Origin: a plasmid
Assembly: GCF_055900595.2 (NCBI RefSeq)
Contig: NZ_JBVWEU010000006.1
Length of the DNA stretch: 8,513 nt
Reading direction: 5' to 3' (one strand)
The notes under the pieces are model-generated. The model ran no database searches. It was not told where the DNA came from and saw nothing but the letters and a program-made list of their open reading frames with translations. Positions 167-8,513 of the stretch are shown here, piece after piece. Position numbers and translations under genes: made by a program. The number at the start of each line of letters is the position of its first letter. Positions within the stretch are counted from its first letter, which is position 1.

Positions 167-272
167 ACGATTTTGGTTACTGCGCTCCTCTAACTAGCCA
201 GTTACCTTGGTTCATAGAGCCGCAAACTCTTAGAACCTAAGAAAAACCGCCCCGCAAAGGCGGTTTTTCTTT
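167..272 (+). ncRNA. RNAI: RNAI antisense copy-number control RNA (approximate ends)
   Basis: Aligns with pMB1 RNAI (conserved ctgcgctc...gccagttacctt core) and ends in hairpin ccgcc...ggcgg followed by tttttcttttt at 247..274. Ends set by alignment from memory, not by transcript data. Confidence 0.6.
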
Positions 273-796
273 TTCAAGAAGAGTACTAGGTCACACTTGA
301 TGACGTCAAGACGGTTTTCGCTAAAGAGGAACAACCACGCCACCTTCATTTCTTTGAAAAAAGAGGATAATTCCAAAATAGTTGTAGTCACCTCAATCAA
401 AGTAAATTCATCATTAATATCAAATAAATACCACAAACCCAAGTGAGGGTAACCTTCGTCCTTTATATCAATACATTTATCTGGTTTGTTAACTTGCTCG
501 ATCACTTCCGCTGCATCAAATGAGAGATATATGGCAGGTTTGGTTTTCCCTACAGGGATTCTTTTATGTACATCCCTTACCATTCCTTCATAATAATCTT
601 TATTTGAATGATAAATAGACACATAATCCTCTGAAATTTCCTCCCTAAGATAAAAACACTTAATAGTTGTAGCGCCAAACTCATCTTTATGATCTTCCAT
701 AACATAACGCCATAAATATGAATTATTTGCTCTGCCCGTAAATGCATTAATACAAGGGATTGATTTGAGGTTATTTAAAGTTGATAACACAGTCAT
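230..796 (-). CDS. Hypothetical protein, 188 aa, third gene of AT-rich operon; no family recognised
   Basis: Open frame in the ORF track (190 aa from GTG at 800..802). I place the start at ATG 794..796, which overlaps the upstream gene's TGA stop (796..798) as TGATG, with GGAG about 10 nt upstream. The stop TAA (230..232) lies inside the RNAI region. AT-rich, protein-like composition. Confidence 0.7.
   Translation of the reverse strand: MTVLSTLNNLKSIPCINAFTGRANNSYLWRYVMEDHKDEFGATTIKCFYLREEISEDYVSIYHSNKDYYEGMVRDVHKRIPVGKTKPAIYLSFDAAEVIEQVNKPDKCIDIKDEGYPHLGLWYLFDINDEFTLIEVTTTILELSSFFKEMKVAWLFLFSENRLDVIKCDLVLFLKKKNRLCGAVFLRF
283..309 (-). promoter_or_regulatory. Putative RNAII (primer) promoter
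   Basis: Minus strand reads TTGACG (304..309), 15-nt spacer, TAGTAC (283..288), placed just beyond the RNAI 3-prime end as in ColE1. Spacing is short; weak call. Confidence 0.35.
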
Positions 797-1440
797 CACC
801 ACTCCATCATTTTAAATAATGATTTGATAGCAATGGAGTTATCAAGGCTATCGCCAATATATGCCCTACCTGTAACCTTAACCACTCCAGAAACTTTTCT
901 AACAAAGGAAAAAATAATCTCGTTATTTGTTTTCACTATTAAATTTAGCGTGCCTTTGCTTTTCTTAGTTTGTTTATATATAAGCCCAAAACACTCTGAT
1001 TTTTTATCAAAGTAAATCTGAGCGTCTTTTTTTGCAGCAAGTTCAGGGGCATACCTAATCAACTGAACAATAGCCTGCAAAGATGGTTCTAGGTCACCAG
1101 TGCAGAACTCGTATTCTCTATTATAAACAGAAATGGCACTTCTTATTTTTTTAAAAAACAATAAGAATTCACCTGATAATTCTAATGATTCGTAATGTTT
1201 TAAAATTGACTCATAACCGTCACCAGAGCAATCTAATGTTTTAACATCATCATTCCAAGACTCCCAAACAGAATTCTCAACAACAACAAATGCTCGACCC
1301 AAAACTTTAAACAAATCCGGATCTCTTAAATCATTTAGCTCTAACTTATTATAATCAGAAACATCATAACGAACACCGAGATCAATGCTATCATTAGTAA
1401 TATAATAATCTTCACTATCGCAGTGGTTAATGTATTTCAT
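796..1440 (-). CDS. Hypothetical protein, 214 aa, second gene of AT-rich operon; no family recognised
   Basis: ORF track gives 796..1458 from a TTG. The first ATG is 1438..1440, 1 nt after the upstream gene's TAG stop (1442..1444), with GGTGA SD-like sequence 5-9 nt upstream. Stop overlaps the next gene's start. Confidence 0.7.
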   Translation of the reverse strand: MKYINHCDSEDYYITNDSIDLGVRYDVSDYNKLELNDLRDPDLFKVLGRAFVVVENSVWESWNDDVKTLDCSGDGYESILKHYESLELSGEFLLFFKKIRSAISVYNREYEFCTGDLEPSLQAIVQLIRYAPELAAKKDAQIYFDKKSECFGLIYKQTKKSKGTLNLIVKTNNEIIFSFVRKVSGVVKVTGRAYIGDSLDNSIAIKSLFKMMEW

Positions 1441-1441
1441 A

Positions 1442-1666
1442 CTAATCACCTGACTCAACGAATTTATTCAATCCATCGATAAGGTTCTTTGCATGTTTTT
1501 TGGTTAGAGCTATGGAATAAAAAACCCTTCCTGATTCTTTTTCAGGAAAGTCCACTAACTCTAAAAAACAAATATCTTCAGCTATCCCAACTCTTAGAGC
1601 CATCGGGAATACAGGTTCATTTTTTCTTGGTGTTACTTTTCTTTCTAAAGAATCTTTATTGCTCAT
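1442..1666 (-). CDS. Hypothetical small protein, 74 aa, first gene of AT-rich operon
   Basis: ORF with ATG at 1664..1666 preceded by a GGGG-containing SD-like sequence, tightly packed against the next gene, and preceded by an AT-rich promoter-like region. Confidence 0.6.
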   Translation of the reverse strand: MSNKDSLERKVTPRKNEPVFPMALRVGIAEDICFLELVDFPEKESGRVFYSIALTKKHAKNLIDGLNKFVESGD

Positions 1667-1791: not shown

Positions 1792-2030
1792 ATTTAACAT
1801 AACACCAAAATTGTACGCACCGCTAAAACGGCCTCAGGGCGTTTCTGACGGGAAACCGGTAAAATAGGCAACAAACCACCCGAAAACCCGCCAGAAACGC
1901 GCAGGCTCTGTTTTTACGGCATGCATGAGTATGCACGCAAGTGCATAGCGCGAAAATTCACGCCATTCAGCCAGGGTAAGTCCTGTTTCCGGCGTTCTTC
2001 CCATCCGAAAACGGTGAACGGGGACGCAAT
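1792..2030 (-). other. cer: cer-like XerCD multimer-resolution site (core 1792..1821 plus putative accessory sequences to about 2030)
   Basis: Reverse complement of 1792..1821 is GGTGCGTACAA-ttttggtg-TTATGTTAAAT. Against ColE1 cer as I recall it (GGTGCGTACAA-ttaaggga-TTATGGTAAAT) the XerC arm is 11/11, the XerD arm 10/11, with an 8-bp spacer. A palindrome-rich segment (atgcatgagtatgcacgcaagtgcata, 1921..1947) lies about 100 bp into the accessory side, where an ArgR box would be expected. Confidence 0.6.
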
Positions 2031-2159
2031 TTATTGCGTGGCCGTGAAGCGTTGCCGGCGCAGCCGGAAAACCGGTTTTCAGCACGTTCAGGAATCGGGT
2101 TCGTCGACGGCCGGCAATCACGTTATGGCAAGTCGCCGGACGACTCACCACACGATTCA

Positions 2160-2340
2160 CCGGCGACTCTTCACTAGAGTCGTACCCAGAGTCGTCACGT
2201 CTAAAAAACAACCAAACGGGGAGTCGGGTCTAGAGTCGGGTCGTTGTTAACTTATTGTTTTTATAGTCCTGAGTCGTTACCGACTCTATGACGACTCGCC
2301 GGGGACTCTATGACGAGTCGTCATAGAGTCGGATCTGTAT
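2160..2340. repeat. Cluster of GAGTCG/CGACTC repeats including a 13-bp perfect inverted repeat and a third direct copy; function unknown
   Basis: GAGTCG or its complement occurs at least ten times in about 180 bp. gactctatgacga-g-tcgtcatagagtc (2310..2336) is a 13-bp perfect palindrome around one central base, and cgactctatgacgactcg (2288..2305) is a further direct copy. Confidence 0.6.
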
Positions 2341-2484
2341 AAATAAAATTAAAAAAACGAAATTTATAGAACGTAAACTACTGATATAAAATACAAATCT
2401 GCAAAATTTTAATTTTGCGTGGGGTGTGGATATTTTTAGTGGTGAGGAGCGTTCAGAGATCTGGCGATTTTTGGGAAGGTTCAG

Positions 2485-2489: not shown

Positions 2490-2527
2490 GGGGTCTGACG
2501 CTCAGTGGAACGAAAACTCACGTTAAG
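2490..2527 (+). repeat. Tn3-family IRL, 38 bp
   Basis: Exact match to the Tn3 38-bp terminal repeat; the tnpA stop codon (2523..2525) lies inside it, as in Tn3. Confidence 0.95.
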
Positions 2528-5500
2528 CAACGTTTTCTGCCTCTGACGCCTCTTTTAATGGTCTCAGATGTCCTTTGGTCACCAGTTCTGCCAGCGTGAA
2601 GGAATAATGGCCGAGCATATTGATATGTCCGTGGCAAAGCGGGGAGAGGCGTGCGATATCTTCATCATTCAGTGTTTCACCCTGCGCCCGGAGATGATCC
2701 AGGGCTGCCTGCATATAAATAGTGTTCCATAACACGACGGCGTTAGTGACCAGCCCCAGTGTGCCCAGTTGATCTTCCTGACCGTCGGTATATCGTTTTC
2801 TTATCTCACCTTTTTGACCGTGACAGATGGCTCTGGCAACGGCATGGCGACTTTCTCCCCGATTAAGCTGGGTCAGAATGCGCCGGCGGTAATCTTCATC
2901 ATCAATATAATTAAGCAGATACAGCGTTTTGTTGATGCGCCCCACTTCAATGATTGCCTGAGTCAGTCCGGAAGGACGTTCACTTTTCAGCAATGAACGG
3001 ACCAGCACTGAAACCTGTACTTTGCCCAGCTTCAGGGAGCCAGCGGTCCGGATCATTTCGTCCCACTGAAGGACTATTTTTCGGGGATCTGATTGCCCTC
3101 TGGCAATATCATTCAGCACGCCATAGTCGGCATCATGGTCCATTCGCCAGAAAACCGAAGCACCGGCATCAGCCAGGCGTGGAGAAAACTGGTATCCCAG
3201 CAGCCAGAAAAGGCCAAAGACAAGTTCGCTGGCACCTGCTGTATCGGTCATAATTTCGGTTGGATTCAGCCCGGTCTCCTGTTCCAGAAGACCTTCCAGC
3301 ACAAAGATAGAGTCCCTCAGCGTCCCCGGTATAACGATGCCATGAAAGCCGGAATACTGATCGGACACAAAGTTGTACCAGGTGATCCCTCTGTTATTAC
3401 CAAAGTATTTGCGGTTCGGTCCGGCATTGATTGTTCTGACTGGCGTAACAAAGCGCATTCCATCTGCAGATGCCACTTCTCCTCCACCCCATATCTGTGC
3501 CAGTGGCAGCGTTGCCTGAAAATCAACCAGTCTGGCATTAGCGCTGGTGATAGTTTCAGCCCGCAGATAGTTCGCTTTTGTCCAGTTCAGCCGGTGTCGG
3601 GTCAGTGCAGGAACATTTGATCTGATCAGTGGTTCCAGACCGATATTGCAGGCTTCAGCCATCAGCACGGCGCTGATGCTGACGGGCAGATCATCAACTC
3701 TGGCACTGGCTTCACTAGCATGGAAAAACTCATCAGCAAATCCGGTATGGGCGTTAATTTCGAGCAGCAACTCCGTTAAATCCACCGGAGGGAGTAGATC
3801 ACTGATCATTTTGCTCAGTCGTTTCAGACTGTCCGGCTCATCAAGACTGGCGAGGGGAGAAATTGTCAACCGGGGCTTCGGGCCAGAAACATCGAGTTCG
3901 ACAGCCTCATTTTCGCAAAGACGTGCAGCAACCTGTCTGTAACGACTATCAAGCTGATGACCCAGAGATTTTATTGCTTCCTGCGGGTCTGTCGGGTGCC
4001 CCAAAGAACGATAAACCTTAATCCGGTTTGCCTGCCAGTCAGCACCCTGTAGTAATCTTGCACGAGGATCTCCCCACCGGTTACTGCCGGTAACGTAGAC
4101 ATCCCTCCGCCTCAGACTATCCTGCAGTTTACTGAGAAAGCAGAGCGTGTATCCCCTGCGGGTGATATGTTTTTCCTTGTTAATCACCAGCCGTTTCCAT
4201 GACCGACTGATAATTTCCGTTGGTGCGTCGTCAAAAAACTGCCGCCGTGAGCTGAACTCCCGGCTGAGGTAGTCACAGGCATTCAGAGTGGTAACCCCGG
4301 CAGGTGCGGATGAAAATTTAACGGTATTCAGCAGATGGGGCAGGAAACGACGAACGCGCCCGTACTGCTCCACCATTTCTTCATGAAAATTATCGTCTGA
4401 GGGCCGGGCAATTTCACGGACAAGCGTGATGATTTCAGCCAGCTTTTGCCTTGGGATGTAGCTGAACACCTCAGCACGAATCGATTCGTCCGGTGTTTCT
4501 TCTTTCAGCAGGTACGAACATGCGCTGGCGAGCGCCAATGCAGATTTATCCAGATCCTTCAGCGAGCGGAGCCGTTTTTTCTGCCCAATCTTTCTGGCGT
4601 CACGGATGATAACGGCCAGCATGGCGTCCAGAACGTCCAATGCATCATCCAGCGCCAGCGTTTCCCATGCAAGGACAAAGGCAACCAGAACCGCCATCCT
4701 TTTCTGCGGTGACATCCTGGCAATATTGAACACCGAAGTCATACCAGCATAACGTGCGAGATTTTTCAGGCGCACAGCCGGGAGTGTACTCAGGTTTTCA
4801 GCATGCAGGCCAAAATCGTTCAGAGTTTTCCAGCGTTCAATTGCTTCATTAAACGCCGGACCACTGATGGTCACAGGGCCCTTTTTCAGTGATTCCAGTA
4901 AAGACAGGCGGCTGCAATCAGTTGGCCCCAGCAGCATCTCCAGCTGTGAACGCTGTTCGGCTGACGGTATCAGTGCCAGTTTGTTCCACAGGCGCAACGT
5001 CGCCTTTTCCCTTACCTCTGAAATCAACCGGGTCAGCGTAGTGGCTCCGGGGAGAATAATACGATGTTGCATAAGCCACCCTGTCGCCAGATCGAAAAGC
5101 AGGCCAGGACGTTCGTTGCTTATCCAGCTCCGGGTATATAAAAGACGGGTAAGGCGAAATGTCCAGGGCCAGGCAAATTCACGATACTGATAGTGCTGAC
5201 GTATCAGCGCTGCATGCTCACGGCGGGTATTTTCCCTCTGACCGTATTCTGCAAGAACGGTGATATCACGAATCCCGAGCTGTCTGGCGGTAAAATGCCG
5301 GACGCCGGAAGGAATATGATTCATATCGGTGAGGAAGGTGCCCAGAAAACGGACACATCCAATTTGCAGGGCAATGCCCAGACGGTTGTGATCACCTCTG
5401 CTTTTTCCGATAAATTCCTTGTCTGCTTCATCAAGGTGAAAATATCGTGCCAGCTGAAGCTCATCCGGTTCACCGGTGAATCTGCCATAGCTTTCAGTCT

Positions 5501-5528
5501 GCTCAGTGGTCAGAAAGTCAACGGGCAT
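2523..5528 (-). CDS. tnpA: Tn3-family transposase TnpA, 1001 aa
   Basis: The ORF-track frame (2523..5687) has an internal Met giving MPVDFLTTEQTESYGRF..., which I recognise as the Tn3 TnpA N-terminus. Start set at ATG 5526..5528; the 53 upstream in-frame codons run into res and are not coding. Confidence 0.92.
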   Translation of the reverse strand: MPVDFLTTEQTESYGRFTGEPDELQLARYFHLDEADKEFIGKSRGDHNRLGIALQIGCVRFLGTFLTDMNHIPSGVRHFTARQLGIRDITVLAEYGQRENTRREHAALIRQHYQYREFAWPWTFRLTRLLYTRSWISNERPGLLFDLATGWLMQHRIILPGATTLTRLISEVREKATLRLWNKLALIPSAEQRSQLEMLLGPTDCSRLSLLESLKKGPVTISGPAFNEAIERWKTLNDFGLHAENLSTLPAVRLKNLARYAGMTSVFNIARMSPQKRMAVLVAFVLAWETLALDDALDVLDAMLAVIIRDARKIGQKKRLRSLKDLDKSALALASACSYLLKEETPDESIRAEVFSYIPRQKLAEIITLVREIARPSDDNFHEEMVEQYGRVRRFLPHLLNTVKFSSAPAGVTTLNACDYLSREFSSRRQFFDDAPTEIISRSWKRLVINKEKHITRRGYTLCFLSKLQDSLRRRDVYVTGSNRWGDPRARLLQGADWQANRIKVYRSLGHPTDPQEAIKSLGHQLDSRYRQVAARLCENEAVELDVSGPKPRLTISPLASLDEPDSLKRLSKMISDLLPPVDLTELLLEINAHTGFADEFFHASEASARVDDLPVSISAVLMAEACNIGLEPLIRSNVPALTRHRLNWTKANYLRAETITSANARLVDFQATLPLAQIWGGGEVASADGMRFVTPVRTINAGPNRKYFGNNRGITWYNFVSDQYSGFHGIVIPGTLRDSIFVLEGLLEQETGLNPTEIMTDTAGASELVFGLFWLLGYQFSPRLADAGASVFWRMDHDADYGVLNDIARGQSDPRKIVLQWDEMIRTAGSLKLGKVQVSVLVRSLLKSERPSGLTQAIIEVGRINKTLYLLNYIDDEDYRRRILTQLNRGESRHAVARAICHGQKGEIRKRYTDGQEDQLGTLGLVTNAVVLWNTIYMQAALDHLRAQGETLNDEDIARLSPLCHGHINMLGHYSFTLAELVTKGHLRPLKEASEAENVA

Positions 5529-6249
<721 letters not shown>

Positions 6250-6361
6250 TACGCCTATTTTTATAGGTTAATGTCATGATAATAATGGTTTCTTAGACGT
6301 CAGGTGGCACTTTTCGGGGAAATGTGCGCGGAACCCCTATTTGTTTATTTTTCTAAATACA

Positions 6362-6390
6362 TTCAAATATGTATCCGCTCATGAGACAAT
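6362..6390 (+). promoter_or_regulatory. bla P3 promoter
   Basis: TTCAAA (6362..6367), 17-bp spacer, GACAAT (6385..6390), then RBS aaggaagag before the ATG, as in native Tn3. Confidence 0.8.
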
Positions 6391-6419
6391 AACCCTGGTA
6401 AATGCTTCAATAATATTGA

Positions 6420-7292
<873 letters not shown>

Positions 7293-7352
7293 CTGTCAGA
7301 CCAAGTTTACTCATATATACTTTAGATTGATTTAAAACTTCATTTTTAATTT

Positions 7353-7379
7353 AAAAGGATCTAGGTGAAGATCCTTTTT
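7353..7379 (+). terminator. Hairpin plus T-run downstream of bla
   Basis: aaaaggatc-taggtgaa-gatccttttt inverted repeat followed by T residues. Confidence 0.5.
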
Positions 7380-7401
7380 GATAATCTCATGACCAAAATC
7401 C

Positions 7402-7439
7402 CTTAACGTGAGTTTTCGTTCCACTGAGCGTCAGACCCC
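7402..7439 (-). repeat. Tn3-family IRR, 38 bp
   Basis: Exact reverse complement of the IRL sequence. Confidence 0.95.
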
Positions 7440-7444
7440 GAACT
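7440..7444. repeat. Target-site duplication, right copy (GAACT)
   Basis: Identical to 2485..2489. Confidence 0.85.
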
Positions 7445-7484: not shown

Positions 7485-7907
7485 TCAGGATTTCTTCCAG
7501 AATTTCCACCACGGAGAATGAACCTGTGGAGAGGGTTCGAGCTTGTGTTCCAGAAGCTGCATAGCCTGGCGAAGAGAATCGATATGTTCATCACGAGCTT
7601 TAACAGCCCCTTTAAGACCATCGTTTTCAGCTTCAAGCAAAGCAATTTTATGCTGTAAATCATGTAAACCAGAGATGTTAACCCCTGTAGCGCCTGCGTC
7701 ACCTTTTACATCATGTTTTACAGTGTCGCCCCCACCATAAAGCGAGCCAAAAACCCTAATAAGCTCTGATGTATCAACAACTTTAGTATTTTTCCCATGC
7801 TTTACAACAGAGGTGTAACTTAGTTTCCCACTGTTAATCATCTTGTAAATTGTGGGGCGACTAACCTTAACAAGCCGAGCCGCTTCACTAATAGACACTC
7901 TGGCCAT
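7485..7907 (-). CDS. HTH DNA-binding protein with C-terminal coiled coil, 140 aa; function unknown
   Basis: N-terminus MARVSISEAARLVKVSRPTIYKMINSGKL is a typical helix-turn-helix; the C-terminal heptad-like stretch (LQHKIALLEAENDGLKGAVKARDEHIDSLRQAMQLLEHKL) suggests a dimerisation coil. Its ATG (7905..7907) overlaps the rop stop as TGATG. Confidence 0.75.
   Translation of the reverse strand: MARVSISEAARLVKVSRPTIYKMINSGKLSYTSVVKHGKNTKVVDTSELIRVFGSLYGGGDTVKHDVKGDAGATGVNISGLHDLQHKIALLEAENDGLKGAVKARDEHIDSLRQAMQLLEHKLEPSPQVHSPWWKFWKKS

Positions 7908-8099: not shown

Positions 8100-8513
<414 letters not shown>

What the first reader, a model, noticed from the sequence alone, without database searches (positions are those of the whole stretch)
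2160..2340. Dense GAGTCG repeat array with a 13-bp perfect palindrome, not explained by any annotated feature
At least ten copies of GAGTCG/CGACTC plus the palindrome gactctatgacga-g-tcgtcatagagtc and a third direct copy form an iteron- or operator-like array between the cer accessory region and an AT-rich stretch (2340..2420). The plasmid has no Rep protein or relaxase that would need iterons or an oriT. In the pre-insertion backbone the array lay roughly 200 bp downstream of the HTH-protein gene, making that protein a candidate binder; other possibilities are a trans-mobilisable oriT or a single-strand initiation site.
Basis: seen in the sequence. Interest (0 to 1): 0.5.

Follow-up and report, generated by a model that had tools for sequence, protein, structure and literature searches.

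The report
Borrowed F-type transfer origin, TraM sites
The repeat array is the set of TraM-protein docking sites of an F-plasmid-type origin of transfer that this small, relaxase-less resistance plasmid carries so that a co-resident conjugative IncF plasmid can move it; this is a known strategy, though databases label these plasmids "non-mobilizable".

Summary
GAGTCG occurs 11 times in the window, all at 2141-2331, and the 27-bp palindrome and its third copy are there. The real unit is the pentamer GANTC: 13 copies at 2142-2330 in three clusters, 10 of 12 gaps being 11 or 12 bp (0 of 5000 shuffles).

The array is not an iteron or operator set. Window ~2136-2450 is colinear with the traM-to-SLT(orf169) intergenic region, the oriT, of F-like conjugative plasmids. 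It includes the F nick sequence TTTTGCGTGGGGTGT|GG (nick 2427/2428, + strand). Phased GANTC is the published motif of the ribbon-helix-helix protein TraM of pED208 and R1. The same GANTC distances from nic recur in diverged small-plasmid alleles and in Klebsiella IncF oriTs next to traM.

The neighbouring 140-aa HTH protein is an unlikely binder: its two alleles (44% identical) pair freely with three array alleles.

Best reading: an orphan F-type oriT, mobilised in trans by a Klebsiella IncFII/FIB plasmid supplying TraI, TraM, TraY and the pilus. The closest allele is the pC603_2 type. This is a known kind (pOriT; pSe-Kan, pKPN2), here in a GANTC-type allele. Transfer itself is untested.

The parts
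2142..2193 (.). sbmA-like cluster (named by position, farthest from nic): five GANTC motifs at 2142, 2154, 2165, 2177 and 2189, spaced 12/11/12/12 bp. The extended motif GANTCG is oriented three leftward, then two rightward.
   Evidence: The same distances from nic (277, 265, 254, 230) recur in small-plasmid alleles L007-L011 and in conjugative oriTs L014-L016. GANTC pairs 12 bp apart are the TraM RHH motif (PMC3159463).
2221..2237 (.). sbmB-like cluster (by position): two GAGTC motifs 12 bp apart.
   Evidence: The same distances from nic (198, 186) occur in the conjugative plasmid L014; L016 has 186 and 193.
2248..2260 (-). IHF-consensus-like site (1 mismatch) between the sbmB-like and sbmC-like clusters, at the position of IHFb in F.
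   Evidence: Such matches are not enriched in the window overall (15 found, 10.4 expected); only the position is suggestive. The F site order is taken from PMC12117103.
2271..2330 (.). sbmC-like cluster: six GANTC motifs at exactly 11-bp spacing. It contains the 27-bp perfect palindrome (2304-2330) and the 19-nt inverted arms (2280-2298 / 2314-2332).
   Evidence: It spans +98 to +157 from nic. F sbmC is included in the DNA up to +143 and lies beyond the TraY sites, which end at +90. Conjugative oriT L001 has five GANTC at identical distances from nic (137, 126, 115, 104, 93) and a palindrome in the same place.
2338..2367 (.). Expected TraY (sby) binding region within the AT-rich stretch. Inferred only from position (+61 to +90 in F).
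   Evidence: Position transferred from the F relaxosome cryo-EM map (PMC12117103). No sequence test was possible.
2374..2386 (-). IHFa-like site (TATCAGTAGTTTA, 1 mismatch to WATCAANNNNTTR), +42 to +54 from nic.
   Evidence: F IHFa occupies +23 to +60. The block aligns with 'aacataaactaatgat' of pSTEC367.
2400..2427 (+). Inverted repeat GCAAAATTTTAATTTTGC followed by the TraI trans-esterase recognition sequence GTGGGGTGT. The nick is predicted after T2427 on the + strand, which is therefore the transferred strand.
   Evidence: 17 nt 5' of nic and 2 nt 3' are identical to F, pSTEC367 and the Klebsiella IncF plasmids. The F TraI substrate oligos are GCAAAAACTTGTTTTTGCGTGGGGTGTGGT and the post-nic 22-mer GGTGCTTTT... 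(PMC5422253).
2428..2449 (+). Post-nic segment GGATATTTTTAGTGGTGAGGAG, the counterpart of the F 22-mer GGTGCTTTTGGTGGTGAGAACC bound by the TraI helicase form. Transfer would proceed rightwards from here.
   Evidence: Alignment and oligos. The transposon starts 62 bp 3' of nic, so this segment is intact.
2490..7439 (.). Tn3-family blaTEM transposon (38-bp terminal inverted repeats), flanked by the 5-bp target duplication GAACT (2485-2489 and 7440-7444). Not part of oriT; it would enter the recipient early.
   Evidence: Read. The uninterrupted junction 'caggaactccccgg' is seen in L007-L011. The backbone NZ_CP018446 is 100% identical over 2100-2440.
7485..7907 (-). 140-aa HTH_17/excisionase-type protein of the ColE1 backbone, next to rop.
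   Evidence: Pfam HTH_17 at 3.3e-8 and NCBIfam 'excise' domain. Distant homologues are annotated 'entry exclusion protein 1'. Its alleles reassort freely with the array alleles.

Best explanation
Window ~2136-2450 is a complete F-family (MOBF/MPF-F) origin of transfer without its genes, carried on a ColE1-type plasmid that encodes no relaxase, coupling protein or pilus.

The GAGTCG array is the TraM-binding part of this oriT. It consists of three clusters of GANTC motifs phased at 11-12 bp, called sbmA-, sbmB- and sbmC-like here by position.

Proposed mechanism (inferred by homology with F, R1 and pED208):
1. In a cell that also holds a suitable IncF conjugative plasmid, host IHF and helper TraY bend the AT-rich stretch 2338-2405.
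2. Helper TraI binds GTGGGGTGT and nicks the + strand after T2427.
3. Helper TraM tetramers place their ribbon-helix-helix domains on pairs of GANTC motifs and dock the relaxosome to the coupling protein TraD.
4. The + strand is then transferred 5'->3' starting at 2428, so the blaTEM transposon enters early and the array enters last.

The most similar conjugative allele sampled is the Klebsiella IncFII/FIB pC603_2 / pC336_3 type. Its TraM begins MPRVQVY, and its oriT, like the window's, uses only GA(G/C)TC.

What is shown: homology, motif phasing, conservation of motif positions, and independence from the HTH protein. What is inferred: binding, nicking and transfer.
For: 1. Colinearity with oriT. 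Window 2256-2436 aligns to the traM-SLT intergenic region of the conjugative IncFIB/IncFII plasmid CP067590. A four-way alignment with pC603_2, pSTEC367 and F is colinear from the sbm region to beyond nic, with TTTTGCGTGGGGTGTGG invariant.

2. Identical spacing to nic. The distance from the last GANTC to the nic motif is 93 bp in both the window and pC603_2. Five motifs sit at the same distances in both: 93, 104, 115, 126, 137.

3. The motif matches a characterised protein. In the pED208 TraM-sbmA crystal structure each RHH domain reads one GANTC through Lys3, Gln5 and Tyr7, and motif pairs are 12 bp apart. An 11-bp pair binds better than a 12-bp pair in isolation, and a 10-bp pair does not bind. 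R1 TraM also binds GANTC elements (PMC3159463).

4. The candidate helper TraM fits. TraM of the Klebsiella plasmids matches R1 TraM (1dp3, E 1.3e-19) and pED208 TraM (3on0). Their ribbons are (K/R)-(V/I)-Q-x-Y.

5. Motif positions are under constraint. Three small-plasmid alleles are only 62-69% identical across the array. They keep GANTC at nearly the same distances from nic (277, 265, 254, 230, 148/149, 137/138, 104/105) while the central base and the spacers change. Six conjugative oriTs with different TraM alleles show the same grid.

6. Allele matching. The window array scores best against L001, the pC603_2 type (local score 50, against at most 35 for the others). The window, L001 and L012 all use GA(G/C)TC exclusively. 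The L010/L011 allele matches the GA(A/T)TC-rich L015/L016 oriTs.

7. Site positions fit the F relaxosome map: IHFa at +23 to +60, TraY at +61 to +90, sbmC up to +143.

8. Precedent. The ColE1-like, mob-less plasmid pSe-Kan carries an oriT(F) and was mobilised by F tra genes; pKPN2, also mob-less, carries an identical oriT(F) (PMC9282650). Relaxase-less oriT plasmids (pOriT) are widespread (PMC10123127).

9. Prevalence. The array is present at 95% identity or more in 476 PLSDB records, almost all small Klebsiella plasmids. This argues against a decaying relic.
Against: - No experiment on this allele was found. Binding, nicking and transfer are all inferred.
- No sampled conjugative plasmid carries this exact array. 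The best is about 72% identical over 2256-2436. The two larger plasmids with a strong array match that were inspected (an IncL/M plasmid typed conjugative and an IncR plasmid typed mobilizable) hold inserted ColE1 segments, not native oriTs. The cognate TraM is therefore not pinned down.
- The motif layout differs from the crystallised pED208 sbmA. That site has four staggered motifs; here there are runs of motifs on one helical face.
- The IHF matches have one mismatch each and are not statistically enriched. TraY sites could not be tested.
- The three bases after the conserved GG 3' of nic differ from the conjugative plasmids (GGATAT versus GGTGAT / GGTGCT).
- An attempt to check co-residence with a helper plasmid failed.
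Confidence: 0.88

Rival explanations
1. Relic oriT. The segment was captured from an IncF plasmid together with, or next to, the cer region. It is homologous to oriT but no longer functions and persists as a passenger.
For: traM, traY and traI are absent. No conjugative plasmid with the same array allele was found. MOB-suite types these plasmids as non-mobilizable.
Against: The nic core is identical to functional F-type oriTs. GANTC positions are kept across alleles that have diverged to 62-69% identity, the signature of selection on the motifs rather than decay. The array is found in hundreds of plasmids at 95% identity or more. A comparable mob-less ColE1-like plasmid with oriT(F) was experimentally mobilised.
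Confidence: 0.06
2. Operator or iteron array for the plasmid's own 140-aa HTH protein. The protein binds the GAGTCG repeats to regulate itself, copy number or partition.
For: The gene lies about 200 bp from the array in the transposon-free backbone, and gene and array travel together into larger plasmids. The protein has a DNA-binding HTH_17 domain and a coiled-coil-like C-terminal half.
Against: The two HTH alleles are 44% identical and differ in the predicted HTH segment (SRPTIYKMINSGKL versus SRTTLHRLIKAGDL). They occur with all three array alleles in all six combinations. The same phased GANTC arrays occur next to traM in conjugative plasmids that have an SLT gene, not this HTH gene, beside nic. 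HTH homologues occur in plasmids of Geobacter, Acidithiobacillus and Pseudomonas, and in ColE1-type plasmids typed as mobilizable. The gene's own promoter lies on the far side from the array.
Confidence: 0.03
3. Single-strand initiation or primosome assembly site, or some other replication-related structured DNA, formed by the palindromes.
For: The region has perfect 13-nt and 19-nt inverted repeats and lies downstream of the ColE1 origin in the direction of leading-strand synthesis (RNAI orientation).
Against: The whole region is homologous to oriT, not to any ssi. In the diverged alleles the palindrome sequence changes while the GANTC grid is kept, which fits duplex recognition by a protein rather than a conserved hairpin. 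A pas-like sequence homologous to that of pBR322/pUC appears to be already present next to the origin at about 8130-8200 (comparison from memory of the pUC sequence).
Confidence: 0.02

Closest known systems
F-like plasmid oriT with TraM sites sbmA/B/C, GANTC type (R1, pED208; Wong et al. 2011, PMC3159463; PDB 3ON0)
   Same: Both use the pentamer GANTC as the repeated unit, phased at 11-12 bp with inverted symmetry. Both have three clusters between nic and where traM would start. The overall order is the same: nic, IHF, TraY region, sbmC, IHF, sbmB, sbmA. The nic core GTGGGGTGT|GG is of the F type.
   Different: There is no traM, traY or traI in cis. The motifs form runs on one helical face (five at 12/11/12/12 bp, six at exactly 11 bp) rather than the four staggered motifs of the crystallised pED208 sbmA. 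The extended motif here is (T/C)AGAGTCG. Binding by any TraM is untested.
oriT of Klebsiella IncFII/FIB conjugative plasmids such as pC603_2 (CP067590). The same nic-region sequence is listed as oriTDB OriT_100096 on a plasmid that conjugated successfully (PMC13274134).
   Same: The nic region is about 87% identical. Five GANTC motifs sit at identical distances from nic (93-137 bp) with a palindrome in the same place. Both use GA(G/C)TC exclusively. Of the nine conjugative oriTs compared, this one gives the best local alignment.
   Different: Identity is only about 72% across 2256-2436. The spacers differ, as does the sixth base (GAGTCT there, GAGTCG here). The window has a sixth motif in sbmC and denser sbmA- and sbmB-like clusters. 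The middle (IHF/TraY) block is closer to the E. coli plasmid pSTEC367 (72%), so the element looks mosaic.
Relaxase-less ColE1-like plasmids with oriT(F): pSe-Kan and pKPN2 (Chen et al. 2022, PMC9282650); the general class pOriT (Ares-Arroyo et al. 2023, PMC10123127)
   Same: Both are small ColE1-type replicons with no mob genes that carry an F-family oriT and depend on relaxase supplied in trans. pSe-Kan was mobilised by F tra genes.
   Different: Their oriT is about 90% identical to that of F itself, with F-type TraM motifs A(G/C)CG(G/C)T. The window carries a GANTC-type allele related to Klebsiella IncF plasmids, so a different helper specificity is expected.
ColE1 bom/oriT with MobA-D (MOBP5/HEN) and the NikA-only pCERC7 group
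   Same: These are ColE1-type backbones in which the mobilisation module sits between the rop/origin side and the cer site. The oriT module is exchangeable between backbones.
   Different: The nic sequence, relaxase family and accessory proteins are unrelated. The window has neither mob genes nor nikA.

Membership tests
F-family (MOBF, MPF-F) origin of transfer | Nick-site core recognised by TraI (GTGGGGTGT|GG in F) preceded by the GCAAAA...TTTTGC inverted repeat | tested here: met
   Window 2400-2429 reads GCAAAATTTTAATTTTGCGTGGGGTGTGG. The 17 nt 5' of nic and 2 nt 3' are identical to F, pSTEC367 and Klebsiella IncF plasmids. F TraI substrate oligos are given in PMC5422253.
F-family (MOBF, MPF-F) origin of transfer | Colinear homology with the traM-orf169(SLT) intergenic region of conjugative F-like plasmids | tested here: met
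   blastn hits fall exactly between traM and the SLT gene. The four-way alignment is colinear over about 330 columns.
F-family (MOBF, MPF-F) origin of transfer | Multiple TraM binding sites: repeated short motifs phased about one helical turn apart, with inverted symmetry, on the traM side of nic | tested here: met
   13 GANTC motifs in three clusters at 11-12 bp spacing. The same grid is seen in 6 conjugative and 5 small-plasmid oriTs. Motif identity is from PMC3159463.
F-family (MOBF, MPF-F) origin of transfer | IHF binding sites flanking the TraY region | tested here: inconclusive
   One-mismatch consensus matches at 2374-2386 and 2248-2260 sit at the expected positions, but such matches are not enriched in the window (15 found, 10.4 expected).
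F-family (MOBF, MPF-F) origin of transfer | TraY binding sites (sbyA/sbyC) between IHFa and sbmC | not testable with these tools
   No usable consensus exists for the relevant TraY alleles. Only the position (+61 to +90, window 2338-2367) can be transferred from F.
F-family (MOBF, MPF-F) origin of transfer | Strand- and site-specific nicking by TraI, and TraM/TraD-dependent transfer | not testable with these tools
   Requires mating and cleavage assays.
pOriT (relaxase-less plasmid mobilised through an oriT alone) | No relaxase, coupling protein or mating-pair-formation genes on the replicon | tested here: met
   Apart from the Tn3-family genes, the ORFs are Rop, the HTH protein and three proteins with no family match. 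PLSDB reports no relaxase typing.
pOriT (relaxase-less plasmid mobilised through an oriT alone) | oriT homologous to that of a conjugative or mobilizable element present in the same host range | tested here: met
   At least 3303 conjugative plasmids, mostly Klebsiella, match part of the query, mainly the nic region. The closest allele is pC603_2. Co-residence in one cell was not shown.
[quoted passage not shown] | Repeat sequence co-varies with its cognate binding protein | tested here: not met
   Three array alleles and two HTH alleles occur in all six combinations.
[quoted passage not shown] | Presence of a Rep initiator that uses the repeats | tested here: not met
   The replicon is the ColE1 RNAI/RNAII type, and no Rep family hit was found.

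The most novel reading that the evidence does not exclude
The small Klebsiella ColE1 plasmids may carry a set of interchangeable orphan-oriT alleles, each shadowing one TraM/sbm specificity allele of the resident IncF plasmids. At least three alleles were seen, with conserved flanks around a variable sbm/TraY core. They would be swapped as cassettes by recombination at or near nic, which would explain the free reassortment with the HTH gene on the other side of nic. On a multicopy replicon, 13 TraM motifs per copy could also titrate helper TraM. That would relieve traM autorepression or compete with the helper's own oriT, making the small plasmid an active manipulator of helper transfer rather than a passive hitch-hiker.
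Probability: 0.15. Interest if true: 0.55.

Novelty: new member of a known kind. Interest (0 to 1): 0.3.

Why it matters
Practical value. About 940 PLSDB plasmids that match this array, and all the small ones inspected here, are typed "non-mobilizable". Yet they carry what looks like a complete F-type oriT, and this one also carries a blaTEM transposon. If the oriT works, these multicopy resistance plasmids spread with the dominant Klebsiella IncF plasmids, and mobility predictions for them are wrong.

Conceptual value. This adds a GANTC-type, Klebsiella-associated allele series to the known phenomenon of oriT-only plasmids. The series is a natural experiment on TraM-site specificity: motif positions stay fixed while the central base and the spacers vary.

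The finding does not reveal a new kind of system.

Tried and rejected
- Iteron/operator reading: tested through allele co-variation and rejected.
- Reference oriTs: look-ups of F (AP001918), pED208 (AF411480) and R1 (KY749247) by accession failed. F was obtained as NC_002483. pED208 and R1 were used only through the literature and PDB sequences.
- Native conjugative carrier of the exact array: the two larger plasmids with good array matches that I inspected (pNE1280, IncL/M, typed conjugative; pC248_2, IncR, typed mobilizable) hold inserted ColE1 segments with rop and the HTH gene, not native oriTs.
- Co-residence: the neighbouring accessions of pC603_2 gave a 2058-bp plasmid, a missing record and a plasmid of a different strain. 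Nothing could be concluded.
- Alignment artefact: global pairwise identities with free end gaps gave meaningless values (0% and 100%) for the sbmA/B segment. They were replaced by nic-anchored comparison, local scores and shared 8-mers.
- IHF consensus scan: not significant on its own.
- Promoter/terminator scan of 1750-2500: nothing above chance.
- The AT-rich three-gene operon (230-1666): NCBIfam and PADLOC gave no hits.
- Rfam: only RNAI was found.

Full report
**Context.** The window is a whole small ColE1-type plasmid.
- RNAI lies at 168-271 on the + strand, so RNAII runs leftward across the window's ends.
- A Rop gene and a 140-aa HTH gene follow the origin.
- A cer-like Xer site lies near 1793-1822 (read; compared with the ColE1 cer core from memory).
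- A 4950-bp Tn3-family blaTEM transposon occupies 2490-7439, flanked by the duplication GAACT.
- The transposon-free backbone exists as NZ_CP018446 (3559 bp). It is 100% identical over 2100-2440 and annotates nothing under the array.

**Observation.**
- GAGTCG/CGACTC occurs 11 times, all within 2141-2331, against 2.7 expected.
- The 27-bp perfect palindrome (2304-2330), the longer 19-nt inverted arms (2280-2298 / 2314-2332) and the third direct copy (2282-2298) are all present.
- The better description is the pentamer GANTC. There are 13 copies at 2142-2330, spaced 12, 11, 12, 12 | 32 | 12 | 38 | 11, 11, 11, 11, 11.
- No shuffle out of 5000 reached 13 copies or 9 spacings of 11/12 bp. The rest of the window has 0.54 GANTC per 205 bp.
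- Twelve of the 13 motifs carry the extra G (GANTCG on one strand or the other). Their orientations give inverted symmetry within the first and third clusters.

**What it is homologous to.**
- A sensitive blastn search of 2100-2440 against 72,556 plasmids hit its 5000-record limit. 907 records cover most of the query, and most of the rest are large conjugative Klebsiella, E. coli and Salmonella plasmids matching the right-hand part.
- In those plasmids the match lies exactly between traM and the SLT transglycosylase gene (orf169/gene X of F). That interval is the F-type oriT.
- The window reads TTTTGCGTGGGGTGTGG at 2413-2429. This is identical to F, pSTEC367 and the Klebsiella plasmids.
- The published F TraI substrates are GCAAAAACTTGTTTTTGCGTGGGGTGTGGT and, for the post-nic side, GGTGCTTTTGGTGGTGAGAACC (PMC5422253). 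The nick therefore falls after T2427 on the + strand.
- A four-way alignment of the window, pC603_2, pSTEC367 and F is colinear from the repeat clusters through nic and about 25 nt beyond.

**Why the repeats are TraM sites.**
- Wong et al. 2011 (PMC3159463) solved pED208 TraM bound to sbmA. Each ribbon-helix-helix dimer reads one GANTC through Lys3, Gln5 and Tyr7, and each tetramer bridges two motifs 12 bp apart.
- In their assays an isolated 11-bp pair bound better than a 12-bp pair, and a 10-bp pair did not bind. R1 TraM also recognises GANTC elements, whereas F TraM (Asn5) reads A(G/C)CG(G/C)T.
- TraM of the Klebsiella plasmid matches R1 TraM (E 1.3e-19) and pED208 TraM. All six further TraM alleles I fetched have a (K/R)-(V/I)-Q-x-Y ribbon.
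- In pC603_2, five GANTC motifs lie 137, 126, 115, 104 and 93 bp from the nic motif, with a palindrome at the same place. The window has 148, 137, 126, 115, 104 and 93.
- F and pSTEC367 have no GANTC in this region. They have other repeats in the homologous positions, as expected for a different TraM specificity.

**Evidence of constraint.**
- Small plasmids carry at least three alleles of this oriT: the window type, L007-L009, and L010-L011. They are 62-69% identical across the array but have nearly identical flanks.
- GANTC is kept at nearly the same distances from nic in all of them. The central base and the spacers change.
- Conjugative oriTs L014-L016 share much of the same grid, for example 266, 254, 198, 186, 137, 115, 104 and 93 in L014.
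- The alleles pair up. The window array aligns best with pC603_2 (L001), and the window, L001 and L012 (pC336_3) all use GA(G/C)TC exclusively. The L010/L011 allele matches the GA(A/T)TC-rich L015/L016 oriTs.

**Map against the F relaxosome.**

| F feature (PMC12117103) | Position from nic | Window equivalent |
|---|---|---|
| TraI trans-esterase site | -2 to +9 | around 2427/2428 |
| IHFa | +23 to +60 | 2405-2368; a 1-mismatch IHF match at 2374-2386 |
| Three TraY molecules | +61 to +90 | 2367-2338 |
| sbmC | inside the DNA reaching +143 | six-motif cluster at +98 to +157 |

- A second 1-mismatch IHF match (2248-2260) lies between the sbmC-like and sbmB-like clusters, where IHFb lies in F. 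The IHF matches are not significant on their own.

**The HTH protein.**
- It has an HTH_17/excisionase-type N-terminus and a coiled-coil-like C-terminal half.
- Distant homologues are annotated "entry exclusion protein 1". The family extends to unrelated plasmids of Geobacter, Acidithiobacillus and Pseudomonas.
- Two alleles, 44% identical and differing in the predicted HTH segment (residues 13-28), occur among the small plasmids. Each is found with each of the three array alleles.
- That independence, together with the presence of the same arrays in conjugative plasmids lacking this gene, argues against it being the array's binder. It does not exclude some other role for the protein.

**Comparison with what is known.**
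- Relaxase-less plasmids that carry only an oriT are a recognised and abundant class (PMC10123127).
- The ColE1-like plasmid pSe-Kan, which lacks mob genes and has an oriT about 90% identical to F's, was mobilised by F tra genes; pKPN2, also mob-less, carries an identical oriT(F) (PMC9282650).
- oriT-only mobilisation by IncF helpers is also documented for Klebsiella virulence plasmids (PMC8299605).
- The nic-region sequence of pC603_2 is listed as oriTDB type 100096 on a Klebsiella plasmid that conjugated (PMC13274134).
- The window is thus a new member of a known kind: a GANTC-type allele on a Klebsiella ColE1 backbone. Its motif layout is runs on one helical face, including six at 11 bp, rather than the staggered four-motif sbmA of pED208.

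**Limits.**
- Nothing here shows binding, nicking or transfer.
- The exact array allele was not found in a native conjugative oriT, so the helper assignment is by best resemblance only.
- TraY sites could not be assessed.
- Co-residence with a helper plasmid was not established.

**Verdict.** The favoured interpretation (operator or iterons for the HTH protein) is not supported, and the alternative of a trans-mobilisable oriT is strongly supported. Confidence in the oriT/TraM-site explanation is 0.88. Interest is modest at 0.3: the main value is correcting the "non-mobilizable" label for a large group of small resistance plasmids.

Noticed in passing
window 2100-2165 and 2428-2489, compared with L007-L011, L018, L019: The flanks of the small-plasmid oriT are nearly identical in all alleles, while the core (about 2166-2400) drops to 62-69% identity. 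The HTH allele on the far side of nic reassorts freely with the core. This looks like cassette exchange, possibly by recombination at nic, as proposed for qnrB19 plasmids (Tran et al. 2012, cited in PMC6764390 and PMC8683028).
   Followed up: partly
L008 648-658 and L009 1508-1518 (small plasmids); L013, L015, L017 (conjugative): The nic cores vary at the two positions known (from memory: Harley & Schildbach 2003) to switch F versus R100 TraI specificity. GTGGGGTGTGG (F type) is in the window. GTAGTGTGTGG (R100 type) is in several Klebsiella/E. coli IncF plasmids. An intermediate GTGGTGTGTGG occurs in two small plasmids.
   Followed up: no
window 230-1666, minus strand: An AT-rich three-gene operon (74, 214 and about 158-190 aa) has no NCBIfam or PADLOC match. 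Related backbones carry different cargo at this position: an anti-phage dCTP deaminase, ParA with DUF6530, an ATP/GTP phosphatase, or cloacin. This suggests a variable cargo or defence slot next to cer.
   Followed up: partly
window 7485-7907, minus strand: The 140-aa HTH_17 protein has distant homologues annotated 'entry exclusion protein 1' in ColE1-family plasmids. It also gives a sub-threshold match to NCBIfam 'plasmid replication DNA-binding protein' (rep_pAB02_ORF2, 57 bits against a cut-off of 85). Its function in these plasmids is unknown.
   Followed up: partly
window 2490-7439: The Tn3-family blaTEM transposon (4950 bp) is inserted 62 bp 3' of the predicted nick with target duplication GAACT. 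It leaves the TraI-binding segment intact and would be among the first DNA to enter a recipient.
   Followed up: yes
L005 (NC_019346, IncL/M pNE1280) 2501-3514; L006 (CP067912, IncR) 2501-3487: Segments of this ColE1 backbone (array, HTH gene and rop) are embedded in larger plasmids next to Tn5403 or IS26. These are cointegrates, and they may give the larger plasmids an extra F-type oriT.
   Followed up: no
window 1793-1822, minus strand: A cer/mwr-like XerC/XerD core (GGTGCGTACAA-TTTTGGTG-TTATGTTAAAT) lies directly to the left of the oriT module. Assigned by comparison with the ColE1 cer core from memory, not tested.
   Followed up: no
PLSDB typing of L003, L007-L011, L018, L019: All the small plasmids inspected that carry this oriT are typed 'non-mobilizable' by MOB-suite, as are 942 of the 1088 records matching the array. 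This is a systematic annotation gap.
   Followed up: partly
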